Shown here piece after piece: positions 6,794-15,326 of a DNA stretch of 41,656 nt (position 1 is the first letter of the stretch; every line of letters begins with the position of its first letter). Origin of the DNA: Minisyncoccia bacterium. GTDB lineage: Bacteria > Patescibacteriota > Minisyncoccia > Phycocordibacterales > UBA9973. The notes under the pieces were generated by a model. That model searched no databases and was not told where the DNA came from. It was given only the letters and a program-made list of their open reading frames with translations. Position numbers and translations under genes: made by a program. The stretch covers positions 1-41,656 of the forward strand of contig CBFIGQ010000001.1 in NCBI GenBank assembly GCA_965662335.1, given 5' to 3'.

Positions 6794-7702
6794 TTACTGT
6801 GATTTGCTGTGGAATTTCTTGTGTACTTCGCGGAGCTGCTTGTCGGTGATGTGGGTATAGACCTGAGTTGTGGCGATATTGGCATGGCCGAGCATCATTT
6901 GTACGGAACGGATGTCGGCACCATTACTGAGCAAGTTGGTCGCGAAGGAGTGCCGCAGTACGTGCGGGGTGACTTTCTTTGAGATGCCGGCCTTTATAGA
7001 GTACTCGCGGACGATGCGCTCAATAGAGCGGGGGGTGAGCCTTGAAGCCTCCTTGTTTTTGGCAATATTTACAAACATGGCTTCTTCCATATCCTTGCGA
7101 GCCTTCAGGTATGCTTTGATTGCAGTTCTCGCATCATCAGAAATGAATACAACACGAACCTTTTCACCCTTTCCGCGGATAGAAAACTCGTCTCGCGAAA
7201 GGTCGAGGTCACAGTTTAGCGAGCACAGCTCGGCAAGACGAAGCCCTGTCGAGAAAAAGAGTTCAAGGAGCGCCTTGTCGCGAAGTCCTTTGAGGGTTGA
7301 GAGGTCGGGAGACTTGAGGAGTCTATTGAGCTCATCAATAGAGATGAGATCGAGGTGGCGAGCGCCCACTTTTGCAAGCTCGATAATATCTGGTGCGACC
7401 GCATCAATGTTGCGTTTGCGGCAATACTTAAGGAATGACCGGAGTGCAATCATGTAGTAGTTTTGGGTATTCTTTTTCATGGTTGCCGCAGACTGCCCAC
7501 GGACTTTTACTCCAGGTGCGCGGTTGAGCCGGAGGCGAAACTCACGGAGGGTGTCTTCACTAATATCCTTCACCTTTTTGATCTGCATATCCTCGGCAAA
7601 ACGGGTGAGGTAATGGTCGTAGTTTTCAACGGTCTTGAGGGATCGACCTTTTTCTATCTCGATGTACTCGAGGAACTGACGCTTTGCGGTAGCAAACTCC
7701 AT
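6794..7702 (-). CDS. XerC/XerD-family tyrosine recombinase
   Basis: N-terminal SAM-like domain (FLEYIEIEKGRSLKTVENY); RDKALLELFFSTGLRLAEL, GKGEKVR, TPHVLRHSFATNLL, VQMMLGHANIATTQVYTH. Confidence 0.95.
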   Translation of the reverse strand: MEFATAKRQFLEYIEIEKGRSLKTVENYDHYLTRFAEDMQIKKVKDISEDTLREFRLRLNRAPGVKVRGQSAATMKKNTQNYYMIALRSFLKYCRKRNIDAVAPDIIELAKVGARHLDLISIDELNRLLKSPDLSTLKGLRDKALLELFFSTGLRLAELCSLNCDLDLSRDEFSIRGKGEKVRVVFISDDARTAIKAYLKARKDMEEAMFVNIAKNKEASRLTPRSIERIVREYSIKAGISKKVTPHVLRHSFATNLLSNGADIRSVQMMLGHANIATTQVYTHITDKQLREVHKKFHSKSQ

Positions 7703-7759
7703 ATATAGAGTATAGCGTGAAATATTGTGCGACATAAGAAAGTAGTTTTTATTCGGCTC

Positions 7760-7825
7760 GAAGATGACATATTTTTTCCGAAAACTCGCTTCGCTCAAAC
7801 AGTTCTCCAAAAATATGTCACCTTC
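7760..7825 (-). repeat. Long inverted repeat enclosing a GCGAAGC mini-hairpin (REP-like element)
   Basis: Minus strand GAAGGTGACATATTTTT...CTGTTTGAGCGAAGCGAGTT...AAAAATATGTCATCTTC; 17-bp arms with one G-T pair. Confidence 0.6.
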
Positions 7826-9564: not shown

Positions 9565-9626
9565 GCATTTCTTTGACTGTGCAAAACTCCCTTGTGCATT
9601 CCCAATGGCGTGCTACTATAGCCCTG

Positions 9627-9980
9627 ATGAATATCACACACTACAAAGAAAAGCTGCTCGAAGAAAAGAAAACCTTGGAAGAAGAGCTCAGTACTATTGC
9701 GCTCTATAACACCGAAACCAACCTCTGGGAGGCAACCCCAGACCAGGACATGATGGGCGAAATAGATGACAATGATGCAGCAGATCGCTTTGAGGATTTT
9801 GAAAGTCGAAGTGGTATGGTAACGACACTTCAGTCACGACTTACCGATGTCGAAAAGTCACTCAAGAAAATAGAAGACGGCACCTACGGCATCTGTGAAG
9901 TAGGAGGGGAAAAGATAGAAGAAGCCCGCCTCGATGCAAATCCATCGGCAAAGACGTGCAAGGAACACATGAATGGATAA
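9627..9980 (+). CDS. DksA/TraR family protein
   Basis: Coiled coil with DxxDxA tip (DDNDAA); GTYGICEVGGEKIEEARLDANPSAKTCKEH is a degenerate Zn finger (CxxG...CxxH). Confidence 0.9.
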   Translation: MNITHYKEKLLEEKKTLEEELSTIALYNTETNLWEATPDQDMMGEIDDNDAADRFEDFESRSGMVTTLQSRLTDVEKSLKKIEDGTYGICEVGGEKIEEARLDANPSAKTCKEHMNG

Positions 9981-9982
9981 AG

Positions 9983-10007
9983 AAAACCCCCTTATTGGGG
10001 GGTTTTT
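9983..10007. terminator. Bidirectional terminator between convergent genes
   Basis: AAAACCCCC-TTATTG-GGGGGTTTT. Confidence 0.75.
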
Positions 10008-10783
10008 GTTGTTGCACTATTCCAAGAGATTTCAAACATCATTCGCATAAAGTCCGCTACAGCTTTATTTTGGATAATGACTGAATGAAGTCCGGCATCC
10101 CAGACTGTATATGATATAACATCTCCCCAAATTGATACGTTTACCTTGGGATCATATAGTTCTTTGGGTAAGAAGCGTATTTCTCGCATCTTAAATTTTG
10201 AATCCTTTACTTCCTCTGCTGAGTACCGACTCTCTGGTTGCAAAAGACGGGCAAACAGTTTCTTTTTCATGCGTTCTTCGCGATACTGTTTGAGCCTATC
10301 TCGAGCAACCGTGAAATACTGGGGATCTCCACCGAATCGAAGCACTTCACTACCCTTGGGTTGCTTGAGCGACCGATAAAATGTCTCAACGAAACCATCT
10401 TCGCCTTCAAGGTGCTCTATTTCTATCGGTTCTGCCCCAAGAGCAACAGGGAACAGTGCGGCGAGCTTGGGCGCAATGGTTTCAAATGAAGATTTCTTGA
10501 TCGCAATCTGGTTTTCTTCGTATGACAAGTAATTTTTGATCGACCTGGGGTGCTCAATATAGAAATTGCGCCGTTTGCCACTTGCCACTACTTTCAAGAC
10601 GCCGCGCTCAAGGAGCTGCTTGCAGGCGAGCTGGACGGACGAGCGGGGAAGAGCGAGTTCGTTGGTAATATCTTGAATCCCTGACATATTCTTTTTGAGC
10701 AGGAGCATGACGACCTGTGTTTGTGTTCTATCGAGTCCGATCTCAGATAGCGTCTGCCGTATTTCTTGGGGTATATTGAGCAT
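9992..10783 (-). CDS. TrmB-family transcriptional regulator (wHTH plus C-terminal PLD-like/effector domain)
   Basis: LSEIGL..wHTH LPRSSVQ..L.ERGVL; HLEGEDG; RMKKKLFARLL; IRFLP; IWGDVI; SVIIQNKAVADFMRMMFEISW. Confidence 0.85.
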   Translation of the reverse strand: MLNIPQEIRQTLSEIGLDRTQTQVVMLLLKKNMSGIQDITNELALPRSSVQLACKQLLERGVLKVVASGKRRNFYIEHPRSIKNYLSYEENQIAIKKSSFETIAPKLAALFPVALGAEPIEIEHLEGEDGFVETFYRSLKQPKGSEVLRFGGDPQYFTVARDRLKQYREERMKKKLFARLLQPESRYSAEEVKDSKFKMREIRFLPKELYDPKVNVSIWGDVISYTVWDAGLHSVIIQNKAVADFMRMMFEISWNSATTKTPQ

Positions 10784-10873
10784 AAAATGACAAATATTTT
10801 TGTTAAATGAGTAAAATATACTTAAAAATGCTTTTATATCAATATGATACCATTTTGTATATAACAAAGTATA

Positions 10874-10902
10874 TTGACATATCTATCCTAAGCTGGTATT
10901 CT
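10874..10902 (+). promoter_or_regulatory. Strong sigma70 promoter
   Basis: TTGACA (10874-79), 17 bp, TATTCT (10897-902) with TGn extension; predicted start ~10909. Confidence 0.8.
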
Positions 10903-10908
10903 GATCTC

Positions 10909-11370
10909 AGAACATTGAAATAAACCTTTTCGAGAGGCGACTACTGGGAACTTGAACCGACTTCCCGGTAGCCGCTTCTTGAGAAAGAAGCAGAAAATGG
11001 TTGTCGTCAGTCATTCGGCAATGTTTGCCTTACTTAGGTGGACGCGATAATCCCTCTTGGGATATCAAAGTAGGACTTGTTCCAAAAATGACTATTTCTT
11101 TAAAAGCAGGCCGGCGACCAACCGGCAAGTAGAACGTCAGTTCATCGCCAACTGAGCGGTGAATAGGTGAGAGGAGTTACGACTCCTCAAGAAGTGCCAC
11201 CGGCATATCCGAATGACTGACTCGAGAGCTGATCACTGTTCGAGGAGCAACTTTTGTTCCTTGCGCAGGGAACACTAGACGCGTCGACAAACTGGCACGT
11301 ATATACCTAGCGTGTTTTCAGTAATGAAAACAAAGGGTTCGGAGAAGCCGAAAAACGGCTTCTCCTTTCT
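10909..11370 (+). ncRNA. Putative large structured RNA or 5' leader of unknown family
   Basis: No plus-strand ORF of 60 aa or more; 24-bp hairpin 10927-10984 with G-U pairs on the plus strand; perfect 13-bp long-range helix 11006-11018/11209-11221; about eight further hairpins. Confidence 0.65.
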
Positions 11371-11437
11371 ATCAAAATCTTGAGCTAGTGTTCGAGGTTT
11401 TGTAGAGAATTGATCTTTAAACTTTAAAATAATAACG

Positions 11438-12364
11438 ATGAATACGACAAACGTTTCAGACAGCATGCAGTTTTCACTCGGGGTTGATCCTGTTGATCTT
11501 GAATGGGTCACCGTCCTAAAGAAAAAAATAGATGCACTTCCAAATGCAGAAGATTTCCGTGACGTACACATGATTTGCATTGAAAATAGTGCCAATGGCA
11601 ACCATTTGCAAAATGCATATGGCGTGACTATTGCAATGAATATGCTTCGGAAAGAGCCAAACGCAAAGATTCTTCTGTACGGCGTGTTGCCAATGGAATA
11701 CCTTCGCAGGAAAAAACCAGAGATCGATATTGTGCTCAAACACGACAATGTTCGGCTGATGGAAATTCCTTTCAGGTTCGAAGACCTGGCAACAGCATTT
11801 CAGAAACCGAATGAAGTTTCAATGCAAGGATACACGGCAACCGATGAAGCAAAGAAATACATCAGCCACATTTTCCACGACTTAAAGTATGTTCCAAACT
11901 GGGATACCCCAGCAGCATACGGAAACGCAAAGTTTCAAAGCATCATGGAGAAAGTGAAAGAGTATTTCCCAAGTTTCGCTCAATGCGAACCCGCGATCAT
12001 TATTGAATTTCTCAAGTCAGTCTCTGACTCCAGGGAAGAGGTAATGAAAGGAGTGAAGCTTTCCGGTGTGTACTGCGATGTAGAAGGTACGGTGCTTGTG
12101 GAAGGAAAAGTAAACGAGAAAGTAGTTGCAATGCTTGCGCGTTACGAAGGGCAAGGAAAAACTATTATGCTATGGAGCGATGGCGATATCAAGGTGCTCG
12201 CGGAAACGCTTGCAAACCTTGGCATCACTTACCCGCTTACAAGCAAGTTTGACCATGCAGGAGCGATTGCTGAGATCGTCATCGACGACCAGGATGAGTT
12301 CACCTTTGGGGCGCGCACCAAGATTGCCGCAGAAACCTTTCTCAGGGCTGCTGACATCGCGTAG
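11438..12364 (+). CDS. Hypothetical protein: receiver-like N-terminal region plus C-terminal HAD-like domain
   Basis: GVYCDVEGTVL (HAD motif I-like), IMLWSDG (motif II-like), EIVIDD (motif IV-like); YGVTIAMNMLRKEPNAKILLYG resembles a receiver alpha3-beta4 segment. Confidence 0.6.
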   Translation: MNTTNVSDSMQFSLGVDPVDLEWVTVLKKKIDALPNAEDFRDVHMICIENSANGNHLQNAYGVTIAMNMLRKEPNAKILLYGVLPMEYLRRKKPEIDIVLKHDNVRLMEIPFRFEDLATAFQKPNEVSMQGYTATDEAKKYISHIFHDLKYVPNWDTPAAYGNAKFQSIMEKVKEYFPSFAQCEPAIIIEFLKSVSDSREEVMKGVKLSGVYCDVEGTVLVEGKVNEKVVAMLARYEGQGKTIMLWSDGDIKVLAETLANLGITYPLTSKFDHAGAIAEIVIDDQDEFTFGARTKIAAETFLRAADIA

Positions 12365-12527
12365 TAAAAACGGACCGGTCTCACTTATATCTTCTTTTTC
12401 TAGAGAGGATCCGGTTGGCAACAGAAAGTACGTCTTCGGGCGGAAAAAGTGATTCACTGGCAAGTTCGCTTGCCTTTCTTTTTAAAACCAATAAGAAATT
12501 AATGGTTTTAAAAGGGAAGTAGTTTAA

Positions 12528-12555
12528 TTGACTATTTCTTATAAAATGTTATAAT
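12528..12555 (+). promoter_or_regulatory. sigma70 promoter
   Basis: TTGACT...TGTTATAAT upstream of 12571, just after a long hairpin at ~12474-12519. Confidence 0.65.
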
Positions 12556-12570
12556 AAAATTGATTAGAGT

Positions 12571-12867
12571 ATGACAAGAACGGTTACATCGTCCATCCTA
12601 TGGGCGATCGCAGTACTTGGCTTGATGGCGTTGGCGGGATATGCCGGATACTATGCAATGCACACGACTGGCCGCACGCAATCGGGCTGGGACATGTGCT
12701 TGTGCATAGTTGGCTTTTTATTTGTAATGGTATTGGACCTCAATGACTACAGAGGAGGGAACTGGCTGCCTAAAGTACTAGGCGTGCTAGCTATCCTCCT
12801 GGCAGTAATATTTGGGGTACATTACTTTGCAGGAGAAGCCGGCCTTAAAGCGCTGCTCGAATGGTAG
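12571..12867 (+). CDS. Small membrane protein, three TM helices
   Basis: Three hydrophobic segments in 98 aa. Confidence 0.75.
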   Translation: MTRTVTSSILWAIAVLGLMALAGYAGYYAMHTTGRTQSGWDMCLCIVGFLFVMVLDLNDYRGGNWLPKVLGVLAILLAVIFGVHYFAGEAGLKALLEW

Positions 12868-13001
12868 TATAGATAACCAAAAATATCTATAAGGTTTTTG
12901 CTGACACCTCATTGTAAAGTCGGCATCATTTTTGAGCTCTTAATACTTTTATTGAGGGTTCAAAATCGGAAATTTAGTTCTTTAACGTTAAAACTAAACG
13001 T

Positions 13002-13796
13002 ATGCTTTCATTGGAATCTTTTAAGGCAAAGGCCTTTGAACTGTTTGGAGCAGAAGAAGCGAAGATGACCTCTTCAGATCCAATTTCATTTCTTTATGCT
13101 CAAGAATGGAACATTCCGAATGGTTCGGCATTTCCTGAAGATGAGATGGCACGCATGAATGTGCGTCTCGATGACAGAGGGTGTTTCGGTAGAGCAGTAA
13201 AAGCTGCAGTTTTGGTTGAGAAATATTTTCCTGGTGAACAACTTATGTATGGAGAAGTGCTCGAGGATTTGCTCAGAGCAATGCTTCTCCAAGACATTAC
13301 ACCAGCGAACTGGCACGATGACACGTATATTGCTGAAATACTTCAGTATGAAAATCCGCACGCGATTATCGTATGCGGCAGCAAGCAATTTGATCCGCTC
13401 TTTCTTTCGCTCGATGCAACACCTGCACGGTGTAGGCATCCTCGAATAGCAGAGCACGATATATGGAACGGCTTATATGCCACATATCTGACAAGCTATG
13501 CAAACATTGTGGATTCTGAAAAAGGATCCGTGGAAAGTATTTCCATTTTGCGTATAGCAGAAAAGATGTGTCCTTCTCTAATACTTACACAAGAACTCAT
13601 AGCTTCTCGGCTTGGTATGCTTCAACTATTTCATGAATCAATTCCGATTCTTGAAGAAGTTGCAAAAAAGCGCACCGATGCAAAGATTTTATTTATTTTG
13701 TGGATGTTGACTGAGAAACCATACTATCGTGATCAAATTGTTACACTATACGACAAACAAATGCTCAATTTCTTAACCAAAATGTATGTAGTATGA
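13002..13796 (+). CDS. Putative transglutaminase-like (Cys-His-Asp) protein with helical/TPR-like C-terminus
   Basis: RGCFGRA ... PHAIIV ... QFDP order and spacing of a papain/transglutaminase-fold triad. Confidence 0.55.
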   Translation: MLSLESFKAKAFELFGAEEAKMTSSDPISFLYAQEWNIPNGSAFPEDEMARMNVRLDDRGCFGRAVKAAVLVEKYFPGEQLMYGEVLEDLLRAMLLQDITPANWHDDTYIAEILQYENPHAIIVCGSKQFDPLFLSLDATPARCRHPRIAEHDIWNGLYATYLTSYANIVDSEKGSVESISILRIAEKMCPSLILTQELIASRLGMLQLFHESIPILEEVAKKRTDAKILFILWMLTEKPYYRDQIVTLYDKQMLNFLTKMYVV

Positions 13797-13987
13797 CACG
13801 TTCGGACTTGTCACCCGCGATGCAGAAGGCATACGACGCCCTTCCACCCGAAGATGGAGCTGCCATGCTCAAGGACTGGGAAGCCCTACATAACGCAACT
13901 ATACGGGCTGCCATTTCTCAGGTTATGGCGCGCAACAATTCGCACAATGCAGGGAAGCATGTGCTGGAAGTGCAAAACAGAAATTAA
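13793..13987 (+). CDS. Small hypothetical protein
   Basis: ATGA overlap with the upstream gene (translational coupling), 64 aa. Confidence 0.6.
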   Translation: MTRSDLSPAMQKAYDALPPEDGAAMLKDWEALHNATIRAAISQVMARNNSHNAGKHVLEVQNRN

Positions 13988-14102
13988 TTCCCAAAGGAAT
14001 ACGGACGAGCCTATCAGTAAAATCGTCCACATTTTAGAGCTCATGAATAATTCGTGGTCTCTAAATGAAGTAATCTATTTGTTCATTTTTAAACTTAATA
14101 GC

Positions 14103-14333
14103 TTGAAAACAAAATCTGTAATCAAACGTGCAATGATCGCCCTTGTTTTGGGTGCACTACTCACAATTACCGGCGTAGAAGATCATGCTATGAATTTAGC
14201 ACTACGCGGAGAACCTGAATTTGCCGAGAATATATCGTTTCTTGATTATATTCCAGGAACCCTTGTTTTGGGACTTTTATTTTTCCTACTGTCTTTGTGT
14301 CTTACAACTAAAAAAGATGTTACGGAAAGATAG
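14103..14333 (+). CDS. Small membrane protein, two TM helices
   Basis: Probable TTG start at 14103 after the leader module; two hydrophobic segments. Confidence 0.55.
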   Translation: MKTKSVIKRAMIALVLGALLTITGVEDHAMNLALRGEPEFAENISFLDYIPGTLVLGLLFFLLSLCLTTKKDVTER

Positions 14334-14448
14334 GCACTACATAAATGGTTTTGCGTCATGGCAACCTTCGGGTTGCTTTCTTTATCAAGCTCGTATGGTA
14401 AGCGGGTTTGTAGAGAAATTTGATCTTTTCACAAATTAAAAAAACGAT

Positions 14449-14910
14449 ATGAAAAAAGGAACAATTATTTTCTTGATCATTTTACTGGCAATCGGCGGTG
14501 GGATGCTTTGGTATGACATTACAACCTATACCCCATGTGATGTTACACAACGGATATATTCCGAAAAGAACTTTTCGGATCTAAGGGTGACATTCAATCC
14601 CGAACTCTCAACAGTAGATTCGTTCCATGTTGGTGCTCTCTCCTGGGAAACGAGTTGTGTACAAGGAACACTCGAAGAAAATGCTTCCTGGATTGATTCA
14701 AGTTATAAAGTTCTTGCAAAACTAGTATCCCACCAGCCGGGCGGAAGTATCAGATTATCAATAACTATTGAGCATGACGCTATGTTTGGTTTTGATGAGT
14801 GCGAAACCCCCGGAAAGCTGTACATACCTGTCACAGTATACAGTGGAAACAGGGTGAAAATTTTTACACTCCGGTCGGACGGGCCAAAAATTAGAACAAC
14901 AAGAATGTAG
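14449..14910 (+). CDS. Membrane-anchored/exported hypothetical protein
   Basis: MKKGTIIFLIILLAIGGGMLWY signal-anchor. Confidence 0.75.
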   Translation: MKKGTIIFLIILLAIGGGMLWYDITTYTPCDVTQRIYSEKNFSDLRVTFNPELSTVDSFHVGALSWETSCVQGTLEENASWIDSSYKVLAKLVSHQPGGSIRLSITIEHDAMFGFDECETPGKLYIPVTVYSGNRVKIFTLRSDGPKIRTTRM

Positions 14911-14930
14911 CGGTAACCAAAAAAACATTT

Positions 14931-14956
14931 AAGCAACCCTCACCGGTTGCTTTTTT
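14931..14956 (+). terminator. Intrinsic terminator ending the accessory array
   Basis: AAGCAACC-CTCACC-GGTTGCTTTTTT. Confidence 0.8.
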
Positions 14957-14960
14957 AATT

Positions 14961-15326
14961 TTGTGGGCGCATAGTTTCACAGATGAAAAAGATTGTGAGG
15001 GAAAAGTCGGAAAGACATTTTCACAGAGGGTTGTAGAACTTGCACTCATGATCCCAAAGGGGAGAGTCACAACATATGGACATGTTGCACGAGCTGCAGG
15101 TGGGGGCGGACAAGCAGCGCGGAGCGTGACGGGGATTTTAGGAAAAGCATATGCTAGCGGAGAAACGAGAATTCCGTTTCACCGTATCGTATACGCCGGC
15201 GGCAAAGTGTGGACAAATGATGAGTACCGCGCAAAGCGCATGAAGCTCTACAAAGAAGAAGGTATTGAAATTAATCCAAAAGGGTACATCAAAAATTTTG
15301 AAGAAAAACTCTACGAATTTAACTAA
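14961..15326 (+). CDS. MGMT-family DNA-binding protein, alkyltransferase-like (no catalytic Cys); start uncertain
   Basis: IPKGRVTTYGHVA..AARSV; IPFHRIV instead of PCHRV; LYKEEGI. Confidence 0.85.
   Translation: MWAHSFTDEKDCEGKVGKTFSQRVVELALMIPKGRVTTYGHVARAAGGGGQAARSVTGILGKAYASGETRIPFHRIVYAGGKVWTNDEYRAKRMKLYKEEGIEINPKGYIKNFEEKLYEFN

What the first reader, a model, noticed from the sequence alone, without database searches (positions are those of the whole stretch)
11341..14430. Repeated two-hairpin plus boxA-like leader module in front of four genes of an orphan array
Seen four times: hairpin 1, an adjacent hairpin 2, then a boxA-like motif 10-20 nt before a start codon. Copies are 11341-11420 (TGATCTTTAA), 12899-12986 (AGTTCTTTAAC), 14003-14090 (TGTTCATTTTT) and 14360-14430 (TGATCTTTTC). 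A fifth boxA-like AGAACATTGAAA sits at the predicted transcript start (10909). Copies 1 and 4 share primary sequence (TTTCT(T)TATCAA...GGTTT(T)GTAGAGAA(A)T(T)TGATCTTT), a bulged T, and a hairpin 2 that would sequester the U-tract of terminator-like hairpin 1. Knowledge: rrn boxA (TGCTCTTTAACA) recruits NusB/NusE for antitermination. Inference: a modular cassette system in which each acquired gene carries its own antitermination/processing unit. With the regulator and the large leader RNA, this is my best candidate for an undescribed system.
Basis: partly seen in the sequence, partly recalled or inferred. Interest (0 to 1): 0.8.

Follow-up and report, generated by a model that had tools for sequence, protein, structure and literature searches.

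The report
Portable hairpin-boxA leaders between genes
Each gene in a small island that only some strains of an ultra-small Nomurabacteria-type bacterium carry is preceded by the same three-part RNA signal (a stop-like hairpin, a conserved second hairpin, and a word like the boxA of ribosomal RNA operons), which probably lets one long transcript be read through, cut and expressed gene by gene.

Summary
All four copies, plus a fifth at 12459-12534, belong to one RNA family: a GC-rich terminator-like hairpin (H1), directly followed by a conserved hairpin (H2), then a boxA-like motif 15-24 nt before the start codon.

- H2 is paired in 97.5% of cells. 14 of 18 pairs show double changes, and conserved U.G wobbles point to sense-strand RNA.
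- The family occurs in 9 of 51 genomes of the genus and in 18 of 150 other genomes of the order. It was found in 0 of 150 sampled elsewhere in the phylum.
- It usually forms arrays in front of unrelated small genes.
- In relatives a type III hammerhead ribozyme sits exactly where H2 sits, before the same motif (6 of 8).
- The motif resembles this organism's own 16S and 23S leader boxA. nusB and nusG are present; rho was not found.
- The whole block 9981-14932 is missing from the majority form in two metagenomes and sits at another site in a related species. Cargo order differs between islands.

Best reading (0.45): a portable intercistronic unit that gives a 3' hairpin, a processing site and a Nus re-loading site. 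Function is untested. Three earlier notes of this scan describe similar modules in other CPR genomes.

The parts
9981..14932 (.). Strain-variable island: regulator, promoter, leader, five modules and six or seven small genes
   Evidence: In DNA contigs of two other metagenomes, 9980 joins 14933 with 8 other letters between. Depth of the joined form is 23.5 against about 8, and 6.9 against about 2.5. In G019 the homologous island sits after the ComM gene instead.
9992..10786 (-). Divergent winged-helix regulator (weak TrmB/MarR/Sta1-like N-terminus; C-terminal 190 aa unassigned)
   Evidence: Pfam TrmB E 1.4e-5, below its cut-off; NCBIfam Sta1 5.5e-5. Homologues lie next to module arrays in G019 (71%), G059 (80%), G009 and G066 (18-25%).
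10874..10902 (+). Sigma70-type promoter of the island (TTGACA-17-TATTCT)
   Evidence: 10 of 12. The same layout is found in the G019, G066 and G009 islands.
10909..10920 (+). boxA-like element at the predicted transcript start (AGAACATTGAAA)
   Evidence: CAGAACATT(G/C)... is conserved at the same place in four islands. G019 has ACATTCTTTAAGAA. The G012 16S leader has ACATTGAAAAT where others have boxA.
10905..11340 (+). Structured non-coding leader
   Evidence: -164 kcal/mol, z -7.2, 0 of 100 shuffles. No ORF of 60 aa or more; the only one of 40 aa or more fully inside is a 43-aa TTG frame at 11001-11132. No Rfam match. A metatranscriptome contig covers 11045-11229. The leaders of four islands do not align beyond their ends.
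11341..11365 (+). m1 H1, terminator-like hairpin (10 bp, 7 GC, then TTTCTATC)
11366..11408 (+). m1 H2, conserved hairpin with bulged T
   Evidence: R1 73.4 bits and R2 62.2 bits; covariation
11410..11423 (+). m1 boxA-like motif TTGATCTTTAAACT, predicted unpaired; ATG at 11438
   Evidence: PWM 15.0; fold
11438..12364 (+). Cargo gene 1 (308 aa, rare lineage-restricted family)
   Evidence: 17 homologues in the large protein search, all unnamed or 'hypothetical'. 64% identical to the third cargo of the G059 island.
12459..12474 (+). Fifth module H1, classic terminator (GGCAAGTTCGCTTGCC + TTTCTTTTT)
12478..12515 (+). Fifth module H2
   Evidence: R1 18.9 bits; R2 30.5 bits, E 2.5e-4, not in the training set; fold z -6.8
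12528..12555 (+). Sigma70-type promoter (TTGACT-16-TATAAT) in place of the motif, in front of gene 12571-12867
   Evidence: 11 of 12
12571..12867 (+). Cargo gene 2 (98-aa membrane protein)
   Evidence: Homologues are the first cargo in G059 (56%) and G005 (40%), there behind H2 and motif.
12899..12925 (+). m2 H1 (7 bp, 13-nt loop)
   Evidence: The same hairpin, loop included, follows the homologous gene in G059.
12930..12965 (+). m2 H2 (class C)
   Evidence: R2 35.0 bits, E 2e-5, not in the training set
12976..12986 (+). m2 boxA-like motif AGTTCTTTAAC; ATG at 13002
   Evidence: Shares TTCTTTAAC with the organism's 16S leader boxA
13002..13987 (+). Cargo genes 3 (264 aa) and 4 (64 aa, overlapping stop and start), no module between them
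14003..14028 (+). m3 H1 with a conserved 14-nt loop
   Evidence: The same H1 type occurs in G012 (twice), G019, G066, G018 and G050. In the last two it stands in front of a hammerhead.
14034..14064 (+). m3 H2 (class B)
   Evidence: R2 30.9 bits, E 1.9e-4, not in the training set
14079..14092 (+). m3 motif TTGTTCATTTTTAA; start TTG 14103 or ATG 14133 (76-aa membrane protein)
   Evidence: PWM 12.4
14360..14377 (+). m4 H1, terminator-like hairpin
14378..14417 (+). m4 H2 (class A)
   Evidence: R1 69.2 bits. 87% identical over 68 nt to a G019 copy that has different flanking genes.
14420..14433 (+). m4 motif TTGATCTTTTCACA; ATG at 14449 (153-aa gene 14449-14910)
   Evidence: PWM 16.3. A paralogue on contig C33 has a plain promoter and no module.
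14931..14952 (+). Bidirectional terminator at the right edge of the island. It is the resident terminator of the gene 9573-9980 in the island-free form.

Best explanation
The modules are portable intercistronic RNA units of a mobile, strain-variable accessory island.

Proposed mechanism:
1. The island is transcribed from regulator-flanked sigma70 promoters. The first transcript begins with a boxA-like element.
2. Between cistrons, H1 gives the upstream message a 3' hairpin and looks like an intrinsic terminator.
3. H2 marks the 5' end of the next message. Inferred: it is a cleavage site for a host nuclease such as RNase III, or a protective 5' stem. In relatives a self-cleaving type III hammerhead takes its place.
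4. The single-stranded motif that follows is an rrn-type boxA. Inferred: it re-loads NusB-S10 on the polymerase after the RNA has been cut, as the second boxA does in the 16S-23S spacer of rRNA operons. The next H1 is then read through and the next gene expressed.
5. Because the junctions stay conserved while cargo differs, they also serve as homology for swapping genes between islands.

Shown: the family, its fold, its strand, its position, the hammerhead substitution, the likeness to the organism's own rrn boxA, the island's variability and the cargo shuffling.

Inferred: cleavage at H2, Nus binding and read-through.
For: Structure and strand
- One family with strong covariation and conserved U.G wobbles, so it acts as sense-strand RNA.
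- H1 abuts H2 in 18 of 21 copies in the genus and 17 of 23 in the order, with unrelated H1 sequences.
- The motif is predicted unpaired.

Not a promoter
- Sigma70-like sites occur in 5 of 30 modules against 5.6 +/- 2.0 in shuffles.
- A true promoter sits upstream of H2 in G059, so H2 and the motif are transcribed there as a leader.

Hammerhead substitution
- Type III hammerheads match in 9 of 51 genomes of the genus.
- 6 of the 8 good matches are followed at -2 to +6 nt by the same motif, and by eye at least four have a hairpin directly upstream. One lies inside the G009 array.

Likeness to boxA
- The organism's own 16S leader has CATTCTTTAACAAT and its 23S leader has GTTGTTTAACAA.
- Where the 190 nt shown upstream of 16S reach the promoter, leaders of the genus read promoter, hairpin, boxA (30 genomes shown).
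- Order-level copies carry GTTCTTTRAAA upstream of ordinary SD sequences. The motif is therefore not an SD substitute. 16 of 23 copies have it against 2.4% of background windows.

Host factors
- nusB, nusG, RNase III, RNase Y and RNase J are present.

Island behaviour
- Presence/absence and relocation of the island.
- Cargo order is shuffled, and the same cargo sits behind different H2 classes.

Specificity control
- 0 of 150 genomes outside the order match at E <= 0.001, against 14 of 150 inside it.

Published parallels (passages read)
- Clustered hammerheads flank single variable genes in prophage regions, presumably to cut long transcripts (PMC3088659).
- boxA within 50 nt of protein-coding starts is used by Nus factors (PMC5725501).
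Against: - No RNA ends, cleavage, Nus binding or read-through were measured. The only RNA data are three short contigs.
- rho was not found in a genome that is 98% complete. From recall, not checked here: the rrn Nus complex mainly counters Rho and acts poorly on intrinsic terminators.
- The genus variant of the motif (TTGTTCATTTAAAA) has a near-invariant TTG prefix and often an extra A. Neither is found in the rrn boxA. The PWM built from module motifs scores the 16S boxA at only 2.7.
- Many genomes of the genus have an rrn boxA without the C that the modules keep.
- The tight spacing to the start codon (15-24 nt after the TTGTTC) is not needed for antitermination and points to a role in translation.
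- G042 has three H2 copies without the motif, and 2 of 8 hammerheads lack it.
- H2 is a plain hairpin with no ribozyme core. RNase III cleavage there is a guess.
- The covariation alignment is fitted to the model, and R1 and R2 include the motif columns, which biases the hits towards copies that have the motif.
Confidence: 0.45

Rival explanations
1. It is an RNA leader, but not Nus-related. H2, or the cleaved hammerhead, is a 5' stabiliser, and the motif is a translation or stability element. It could be a standby or S1-type site, or the target of an island-specific factor. It would be needed because these genes are internal cistrons in an organism without SD/anti-SD pairing.
For: - The motif lies at a near-fixed 15-24 nt from the start codon.
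- The genome has no SD signal, and the 16S tail lacks CCUCC.
- The motif has its own conserved TTG prefix that the rrn boxA lacks.
- In E. coli a boxA close to a start codon acts on translation (PMC5725501, passages read).
Against: - In other families of the order the same motif stands upstream of ordinary SD sequences.
- It is rare in this genome (7 of 771 genes), so it is not the general initiation signal.
- Its core matches the rrn boxA of the same organism.
Confidence: 0.25
2. Each module holds an unconventional promoter. H1 is a true terminator and each gene is its own, nearly leaderless, transcription unit. The A-rich TAAAAT-like stretch 7-14 nt before the ATG would be the -10 element.
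For: - TAAAAT-like hexamers lie 6-8 nt before many of the start codons.
- Genome-wide, TAnnnT peaks at -12 from starts, in 52 of 403 genes with an upstream gap of 40 nt or more. In-frame stop codons may inflate this count.
- H1 passes the terminator scan in m1, m4 and the fifth copy.
- The fifth copy does carry a real promoter.
Against: - Sigma70-like sites are not enriched (5 of 30 against 5.6 +/- 2.0).
- There is no conserved -35. TTGTTC is 15-24 nt from the ATG, the wrong distance for a -35.
- A ribozyme or a covarying RNA hairpin just upstream of a promoter would have no function.
- In G059 a consensus promoter lies upstream of H2.
Confidence: 0.1
3. The modules are selfish mosaic intergenic repeats, like BOX or REP/BIME elements. 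They spread and recombine between gene junctions without a dedicated role in expression.
For: - Patchy distribution: 9 of 51 genomes in the genus and 18 of 150 in the order.
- Modular make-up, with H1 types, H2 classes and the motif combining freely.
- Earlier notes of this scan filed similar CPR hairpin repeats this way.
Against: - In the arrays examined the copies point the same way as the genes and lie at a fixed distance before a start codon.
- Conserved wobble pairs are specific to one strand.
- A catalytic hammerhead can take the place of H2.
- In G000 all five copies lie in one island.
Confidence: 0.1
4. The modules are DNA-level recombination sites (attC-like) for site-specific capture of gene cassettes.
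For: - An array of unrelated small genes is separated by conserved imperfect hairpins with a bulged base.
- Cargo is shuffled between islands.
- A tyrosine recombinase gene lies 2.2 kb to the left.
Against: - That recombinase scores as XerC/XerD (243 and 237 bits). It reaches only 118 bits on the integron-integrase model, whose cut-off is 265. The genome has only two tyrosine recombinases.
- No R''/R' boxes are visible (by eye only).
- A hammerhead can replace H2, and a promoter or SD follows the module, which points to an RNA role.
- Only loss of the whole island was seen in four runs. No single-cassette variants were seen.
Confidence: 0.05

Closest known systems
rrn operon antitermination signals (boxB hairpin, boxA, boxC; NusB, NusE/S10, NusA, NusG, SuhB)
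   Same: - A hairpin is followed at once by a single-stranded boxA-like word.
- The word resembles the organism's own 16S and 23S leader boxA.
- It is repeated after each place where the transcript is, or may be, cut, as with the leader boxA and spacer boxA of rRNA operons.
   Different: - It precedes protein-coding genes, up to six times in one array.
- No boxC was recognised.
- It follows a terminator-like hairpin.
- It has a TTG prefix of its own.
- The genome has no detectable rho.
- Binding was not tested.
boxA in 5' UTRs of protein-coding genes (suhB and others; PMC5725501, passages read)
   Same: A boxA within 50 nt upstream of a start codon is used by Nus factors outside rRNA.
   Different: There it is a single gene, autoregulated by translational repression followed by Rho termination. 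Here it is a repeated unit in a Rho-less organism, coupled to two hairpins.
Clustered hammerhead ribozymes flanking single, variable genes in prophage-like regions (PMC3088659, passages read)
   Same: - Variable genes are punctuated by RNA elements, presumably to cut a long transcript into single-gene messages.
- A MarR-type regulator lies nearby in the Agrobacterium example.
- In relatives of this genome a type III hammerhead occupies the H2 position.
   Different: - In this window the element is a plain hairpin without a catalytic core.
- The boxA-like word and the abutting H1 are not described there.
- No phage genes were found here.
boxA upstream of CRISPR arrays, and the two-hairpin put RNA of phage HK022
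   Same: These are uses of processive antitermination outside rRNA. put is a pair of adjacent hairpins that acts in cis.
   Different: - CRISPR boxA occurs once per array and works against Rho.
- put needs conserved hairpin sequences and no boxA. Here the H1 sequence is free.
Integron gene cassettes with attC sites
   Same: Arrays of unrelated promoter-less small genes are separated by conserved imperfect hairpins with a bulged base, and cargo differs between relatives.
   Different: - Only a Xer-like recombinase is present.
- The element lies before, not after, its start codon at a fixed distance.
- It is followed by a boxA-like word, and a ribozyme can replace it.
BOX / REP-BIME mosaic intergenic repeats; plastid intercistronic expression elements (PMC2230500, abstract only)
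   Same: These are modular hairpin-forming units at gene junctions. The plastid element marks processing into stable, translatable single-gene messages.
   Different: Here orientation and distance to the start codon are fixed, the fold covaries, and the unit is confined to accessory islands.

Membership tests
rrn-type boxA (NusB-NusE site) | Sequence matches the boxA of the same organism's rRNA leaders | tested here: inconclusive
   m2 shares the 9-mer TTCTTTAAC with the 16S leader. m1, m3 and m4 share 6-7 of these positions. The module PWM scores the 16S boxA at only 2.7, because of the TTG prefix. Order-level copies read GTTCTTTRAAA.
rrn-type boxA (NusB-NusE site) | Single-stranded in the transcript, next to a hairpin | tested here: met
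   Mostly unpaired in the predicted folds of m1-m4 (weak local pairs touch it in m3 and m4), and 1-14 nt after H2. The rrn leaders of the genus show the same order of hairpin then boxA.
rrn-type boxA (NusB-NusE site) | The Nus factor genes are present | tested here: met
   NusB 117.7 bits and NusG 103.6 bits. S10, NusA and SuhB were not searched.
rrn-type boxA (NusB-NusE site) | Binds NusB-S10 and makes the polymerase resistant to termination | not testable with these tools
   Needs a binding assay and in vitro transcription. rho was not found.
Intrinsic terminator (H1) | GC-rich stem, short loop, T-run directly after | tested here: inconclusive
   Met for m1, m4 and the fifth copy. m2 and m3 have 13-14-nt loops and weaker T-runs, so the scan does not list them.
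Hammerhead ribozyme (type III) for H2 | Catalytic core between three stems | tested here: not met
   No hammerhead match in the window region even at E <= 10, and none in G000. The hammerheads are in relatives, at the H2 position.
Integron (attC plus IntI) | Integron integrase next to the array | tested here: not met
   The recombinase at 6794-7810 scores as XerD/XerC. It reaches 118 bits on the integron-integrase model, whose cut-off is 265.
Any described RNA family (Rfam 15) | Match at or near the gathering score | tested here: not met
   Only three tRNAs in the window. Nothing relevant at E <= 10 in 10700-15100. Nothing in 15 related loci.

The most novel reading that the evidence does not exclude
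Rho-less ultra-small bacteria of this order run their mobile accessory islands like rRNA operons. A regulator-controlled transcript starts with a boxA and is cut between cistrons, by a hammerhead in some islands and at the H2 hairpin in others. H2 would then be a functional equivalent of the ribozyme: a dedicated nuclease site or, less likely, a new self-cleaving motif together with H1. After every cut a fresh boxA re-arms the polymerase with NusB-S10 so that it passes the next terminator hairpin. The same conserved junctions act as joints for shuffling cargo genes between islands.
Probability: 0.3. Interest if true: 0.85.

Novelty: new variant of a known kind. Interest (0 to 1): 0.68.

Why it matters
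Little is known about how candidate-phyla bacteria express genes. This organism has no Shine-Dalgarno pairing and no detectable Rho.

A conserved, portable junction combines a terminator-like hairpin, a hairpin that a ribozyme can replace, and an rRNA-type boxA. It offers a concrete, testable model for three things:
- how polycistronic accessory genes are transcribed, separated and expressed;
- how Nus factors work outside rRNA and without Rho;
- what natural hammerheads between bacterial genes are for.

The module is also a practical marker. A covariance model finds strain-variable islands and their small, unannotated cargo genes across a whole order. The tripartite unit could also serve as an insulating part for building operons.

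Tried and rejected
- Known RNA families. Rfam gave nothing beyond three tRNAs, at gathering on the window, at E <= 10 on 10700-15100 and at gathering on 15 related loci. One Rfam call repeated the window region by mistake.
- TTGATC as a -35 hexamer. Rejected, because it lies 15-24 nt from the ATG.
- A sigma70 promoter inside the modules. Not enriched.
- Pairing of the motif with the unusual 16S 3' tail. Inspected by eye only: partial 5-7 nt matches at the wrong distance. Dropped.
- Viral origin. A degenerate H2-3'-arm plus motif pattern hit 50 IMG/VR contigs, about my own rough (uncomputed) estimate of the chance number, and model R2 confirmed 0 of 50. The regulator has no relative in viral contigs.
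- Cargo annotation. PHROGs, PADLOC and NCBIfam gave nothing for the cargo.
- Leader RNA as one conserved structured family. Four leaders (417-486 nt) align only at their first ~20 nt and at the end, with no consensus fold.
- Integron. Only a Xer-like recombinase is present.
- Sequencing runs. All four were contigs, so no RNA ends, strand or levels can be read. X20 is probably DNA. Parts of the island without RNA cover say nothing. No single-cassette gain or loss was seen, only the whole-island joint.
- Earlier notes of the scan. Look-ups by place and by sequence returned nothing.
- Literature. Searches found no description of this module. The four papers that hold boxA, hammerhead and Nus together are unrelated, or use an engineered ribozyme (PMC10250234, passages read). 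Supplementary files were not consulted, and the boxA lists of PMC5725501 are in them.
- Not attempted: structure prediction, complex prediction and atlas searches.

Full report
**Setting.** The window is contig C1 of a 755-kb, 84-contig genome with 46.5% GC. Its closest named relative for the island regulator is a record titled 'MAG: Candidatus Nomurabacteria bacterium', which is genome G019 of the same genus. The genome shows no Shine-Dalgarno signal upstream of 771 ORF-based gene starts. Its 16S rRNA ends in GGATTAACTCAAATT instead of a CCTCC tail.

The four stretches each fold into two adjacent hairpins followed by an unpaired T-rich/A-rich word, with z-scores of -3.5 to -7.3 and 0 of 200 shuffles folding as well.
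- H1 is GC-rich. In m1 and m4 it passes a terminator scan.
Behind the classic terminator 12459-12474 lies an H2 hairpin (12478-12515), and a near-consensus promoter (12528-12555, 11 of 12) stands where the motif would be.

**One family, conserved as RNA.**
- blastn of 10868-14960 against 40 relatives hit only the modules, never the genes.
- A covariance model of H2 plus motif, built from m1, m4 and two relatives (R1), found 14 matches in 9 of 51 genomes of the genus, often two or more per contig.
- On 18 aligned copies, 97.5% of cells pair and 14 of 18 pairs changed on both sides. 0 of 500 shuffles reach this, and slid controls fall to 32-56% paired. The alignment is fitted to the model.
- Three positions keep U.G wobbles (15, 11 and 16 of 18). 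These would be A-C mismatches on the other strand, so the fold belongs to the strand that is co-oriented with the genes.
- The second model (R2) was trained without m2, m3 and the fifth copy. It finds them at 35.0, 30.9 and 30.5 bits. The three H2 'classes' (basal stems TATCAAAA/TTTTGTA, TTTTGAAA/TTTCAAAA, TATTCAG/TTGATA) are therefore compensated versions of one hairpin.
- R2 matches 18 of 150 other genomes drawn across the order at E <= 0.01 (14 at E <= 0.001), again in clusters. It matches 0 of 150 genomes drawn from the rest of the phylum at E <= 0.001. That result also serves as a specificity control.
- A perfect-stem hairpin with at least 3 GC pairs ends within a few bases of H2 in 18 of 21 genus copies and 17 of 23 order copies. 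Its sequences are otherwise unrelated.

**The motif.** In the genus it reads TTG(T/A)TC(A/T)TTTAAA. It starts 1-14 nt after H2, and the ATG follows 15-24 nt after the TTGTTC hexamer.
- In other families of the order it reads (A/T)GTTCTTT(A/G)AAA and is followed by an ordinary SD and ATG. 16 of 23 copies have [GA]TTCTT[TC] there, against 2.4% of background windows. It is therefore not a replacement for the SD.
- The organism's own rRNA leaders carry CATTCTTTAACAAT (16S) and GTTGTTTAACAA (23S).
- Where the 190 nt shown upstream of 16S reach the promoter, the leaders of the genus read promoter, hairpin, boxA. The boxA is ATTCTTT(A/G)A(C/T)AAT, GTTGTTTGAAAAT or TGTTTTTTGAAAAT (30 genomes shown).
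- m2 shares the 9-mer TTCTTTAAC with the organism's 16S boxA.
- The likeness is real but not complete. The modules keep a TTG prefix and a C that many rrn boxA of the genus lack, and a PWM built from the modules scores the 16S boxA at only 2.7.
- In G000 the motif is rare. 7 of 771 genes have a PWM match of 11 or more within 60 nt upstream, against 1.2 +/- 1.1 in shuffles. Four of the five best sites in the genome lie 22-29 nt before a start codon.

**Not promoters.**
- Sigma70-like sites occur in 5 of 30 modules, against 5.6 +/- 2.0 in shuffles. One of the five is the true promoter of the fifth copy.
- In G059 a consensus promoter stands directly upstream of H2, so H2 and the motif form the 5' leader there.

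**A ribozyme can take the place of H2.**
- The motif scan turned up a hammerhead core directly before the motif in G012. Rfam confirms a type III hammerhead there, at 41.1 bits and E 1.5e-7 in that stretch, below the gathering score of 48.5.
- Across the genus the hammerhead model matches in 9 of 51 genomes.
- Of the 8 matches with E below 1e-7, 6 are followed at -2 to +6 nt by the same motif, and by eye at least four (G008, G018, G050 twice) have a hairpin directly upstream. In two cases that hairpin is the m3-type H1 with its conserved 14-nt loop. Two (G009, G054) lack the motif.
- The G009 ribozyme lies inside a six-module array.
- A ribozyme works only in RNA made from upstream. The junction is therefore transcribed through, and in those genomes it is cut between H1 and the motif.
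- Perreault et al. (PMC3088659, passages read) described clustered hammerheads that flank single, non-constant genes in prophage regions, and proposed processing of long transcripts.

**The surroundings: a mobile island.**
- In DNA contigs of two other metagenomes, position 9980 joins 14933 with eight other letters between. The joined form has about three times the depth of the island form. The block 9981-14932 is therefore optional within the species.
- In G019 the homologous island has the regulator at 71% identity, the same promoter layout, a leader and three modules. It lies after the ComM gene instead of between the DksA-like and ogt-like genes.
- Regulator homologues flank module arrays in G059, G009 and G066 too.
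- Four islands share TTGAC(A/G)-17-(-10) followed by CAGAACATT(G/C). In G019 this reads ACATTCTTTAAGAA, close to the 16S boxA of G000.
- The 417-486-nt leaders that follow are strongly folded (G000: z -7.2). They do not align between island pairs, and G059 has none.

**Cargo is shuffled.**
- The 308-aa gene is first in G000 and third in G059 (64% identity). The 98-aa membrane protein is second in G000 and first in G059.
- The same cargo sits behind different H2 classes, behind a plain promoter, or, for the paralogue of the 153-aa gene on contig C33, without any module.
- The m2-type H1, loop included, follows the 98/99-aa gene in both G000 and G059, while the downstream genes differ. Breakpoints therefore fall within or just after the module.
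- The cargo matches no family above a curated cut-off in Pfam, PHROGs, PADLOC or NCBIfam. Gene 1 has only 17 unnamed relatives in 5.8 billion proteins.

**Mechanism.** nusB, nusG, RNase III, RNase Y and RNase J are present. The Rho RNA-binding domain was not found in a genome that is 98% complete.
- The best-supported reading is an intercistronic unit. H1 ends and protects the upstream message. H2 or a hammerhead defines the 5' end of the next message. The boxA-like word re-loads NusB-S10 after the tether to an earlier boxA has been cut, as in the 16S-23S spacer. The next H1 is then passed.
- The idea of re-arming after each cut was voiced before in note e1-992383, and I reuse it.
- The steps from 'RNA junction with boxA-like word' to 'cleavage at H2' and 'Nus loading' are inference.
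- The missing Rho, the motif's own TTG prefix and its tight spacing to the start codon keep a translation or stability reading alive (0.25). An unconventional promoter (0.10), selfish repeats (0.10) and attC-like sites (0.05) are less likely. For the last, the only nearby recombinase is Xer-like.

**Novelty.** No Rfam family matches. My searches of the paper library found no description of this module. boxA outside rRNA (PMC5725501) and gene-flanking hammerheads (PMC3088659) are known kinds. The fused, repeated H1 / H2-or-hammerhead / boxA junction in mobile islands of an order of candidate-phyla bacteria is a new variant that joins the two. This scan has noted similar modules before on other CPR genomes (e1-819742, e1-992383, e1-5093616). 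Those notes are not independent proof.

Noticed in passing
G000 contig C47 (L021 4440-4520); genome-wide: The 16S rRNA 3' tail reads GGATTAACTCAAATT and lacks the CCTCC anti-SD. No SD signal appears upstream of 771 gene starts. TAnnnT peaks at -12 from start codons, in 52 of 403 genes with an upstream gap of 40 nt or more. This may mean many leaderless mRNAs, although in-frame stop codons inflate the count.
   Followed up: partly
window 10905-11340: A 436-nt non-coding leader that is very stably folded (z -7.2) and matches no Rfam family. Islands in G019, G066 and G009 have leaders of 417-486 nt at the same place that do not align with it beyond the ends, and G059 has none. A metatranscriptome contig covers 11045-11229.
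   Followed up: partly
window 14003-14028; L045, L049, L042, L086, L092: The m3-type H1 keeps its 14-nt loop (GCCTA..TAAAAT) and the AAAGGAAAAC-like stretch before it in at least six genomes. Its stem changes in a compensating way (GGACGA/TCGTCC to GGGCGA/TCGCCC). It looks more like a protein-binding hairpin than a mere terminator.
   Followed up: partly
window 12867-12893 and 14907-14933: The 27 nt after the stop codons of gene 2 and gene 6 are 74% alike (GTA..G.TAACCAAAAA...T.TAAG). The second copy ends exactly at the right edge of the island, so exchange may occur just upstream of H1 hairpins.
   Followed up: no
G000 contig C33 (L052 4960-5000 and 6880-6950): Two promoters share the palindromic TTGACAAAGTCAA -35 region. 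One drives a paralogue (77% nucleotide identity) of the 153-aa cargo gene without any module. The other is followed by the best boxA-like motif in the genome (PWM 18.5), with no hairpin.
   Followed up: partly
G000 contig C47 (L170 1270-1360; 62209-63613): The 23S leader has a terminator-like hairpin with a T6 run about 25 nt before its boxA, which echoes the order of the module. nusB and the RNase III gene lie about 600 bp apart.
   Followed up: no
L044 (G042 contig C25) 4562-4621, 8399-8461, 8530-8589: Three H2 copies are not followed by the motif. GC-rich sequence follows instead. This may be a different downstream partner.
   Followed up: no
L049 7100-7164 (G019) and L051 6000-6058 (G012): In two modules the boxA-like motif is followed by a long, perfect hairpin of about 20 bp before the ORF. 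An earlier scan note (e1-992383) described the same extra hairpin behind hammerheads.
   Followed up: no
window 9573-9980 and 6794-7810: The gene at the left edge of the island is a DksA/YteA-like RNA-polymerase-binding zinc-finger protein. A XerC/D-like recombinase lies 2.2 kb to the left and is one of only two tyrosine recombinases in the genome.
   Followed up: partly
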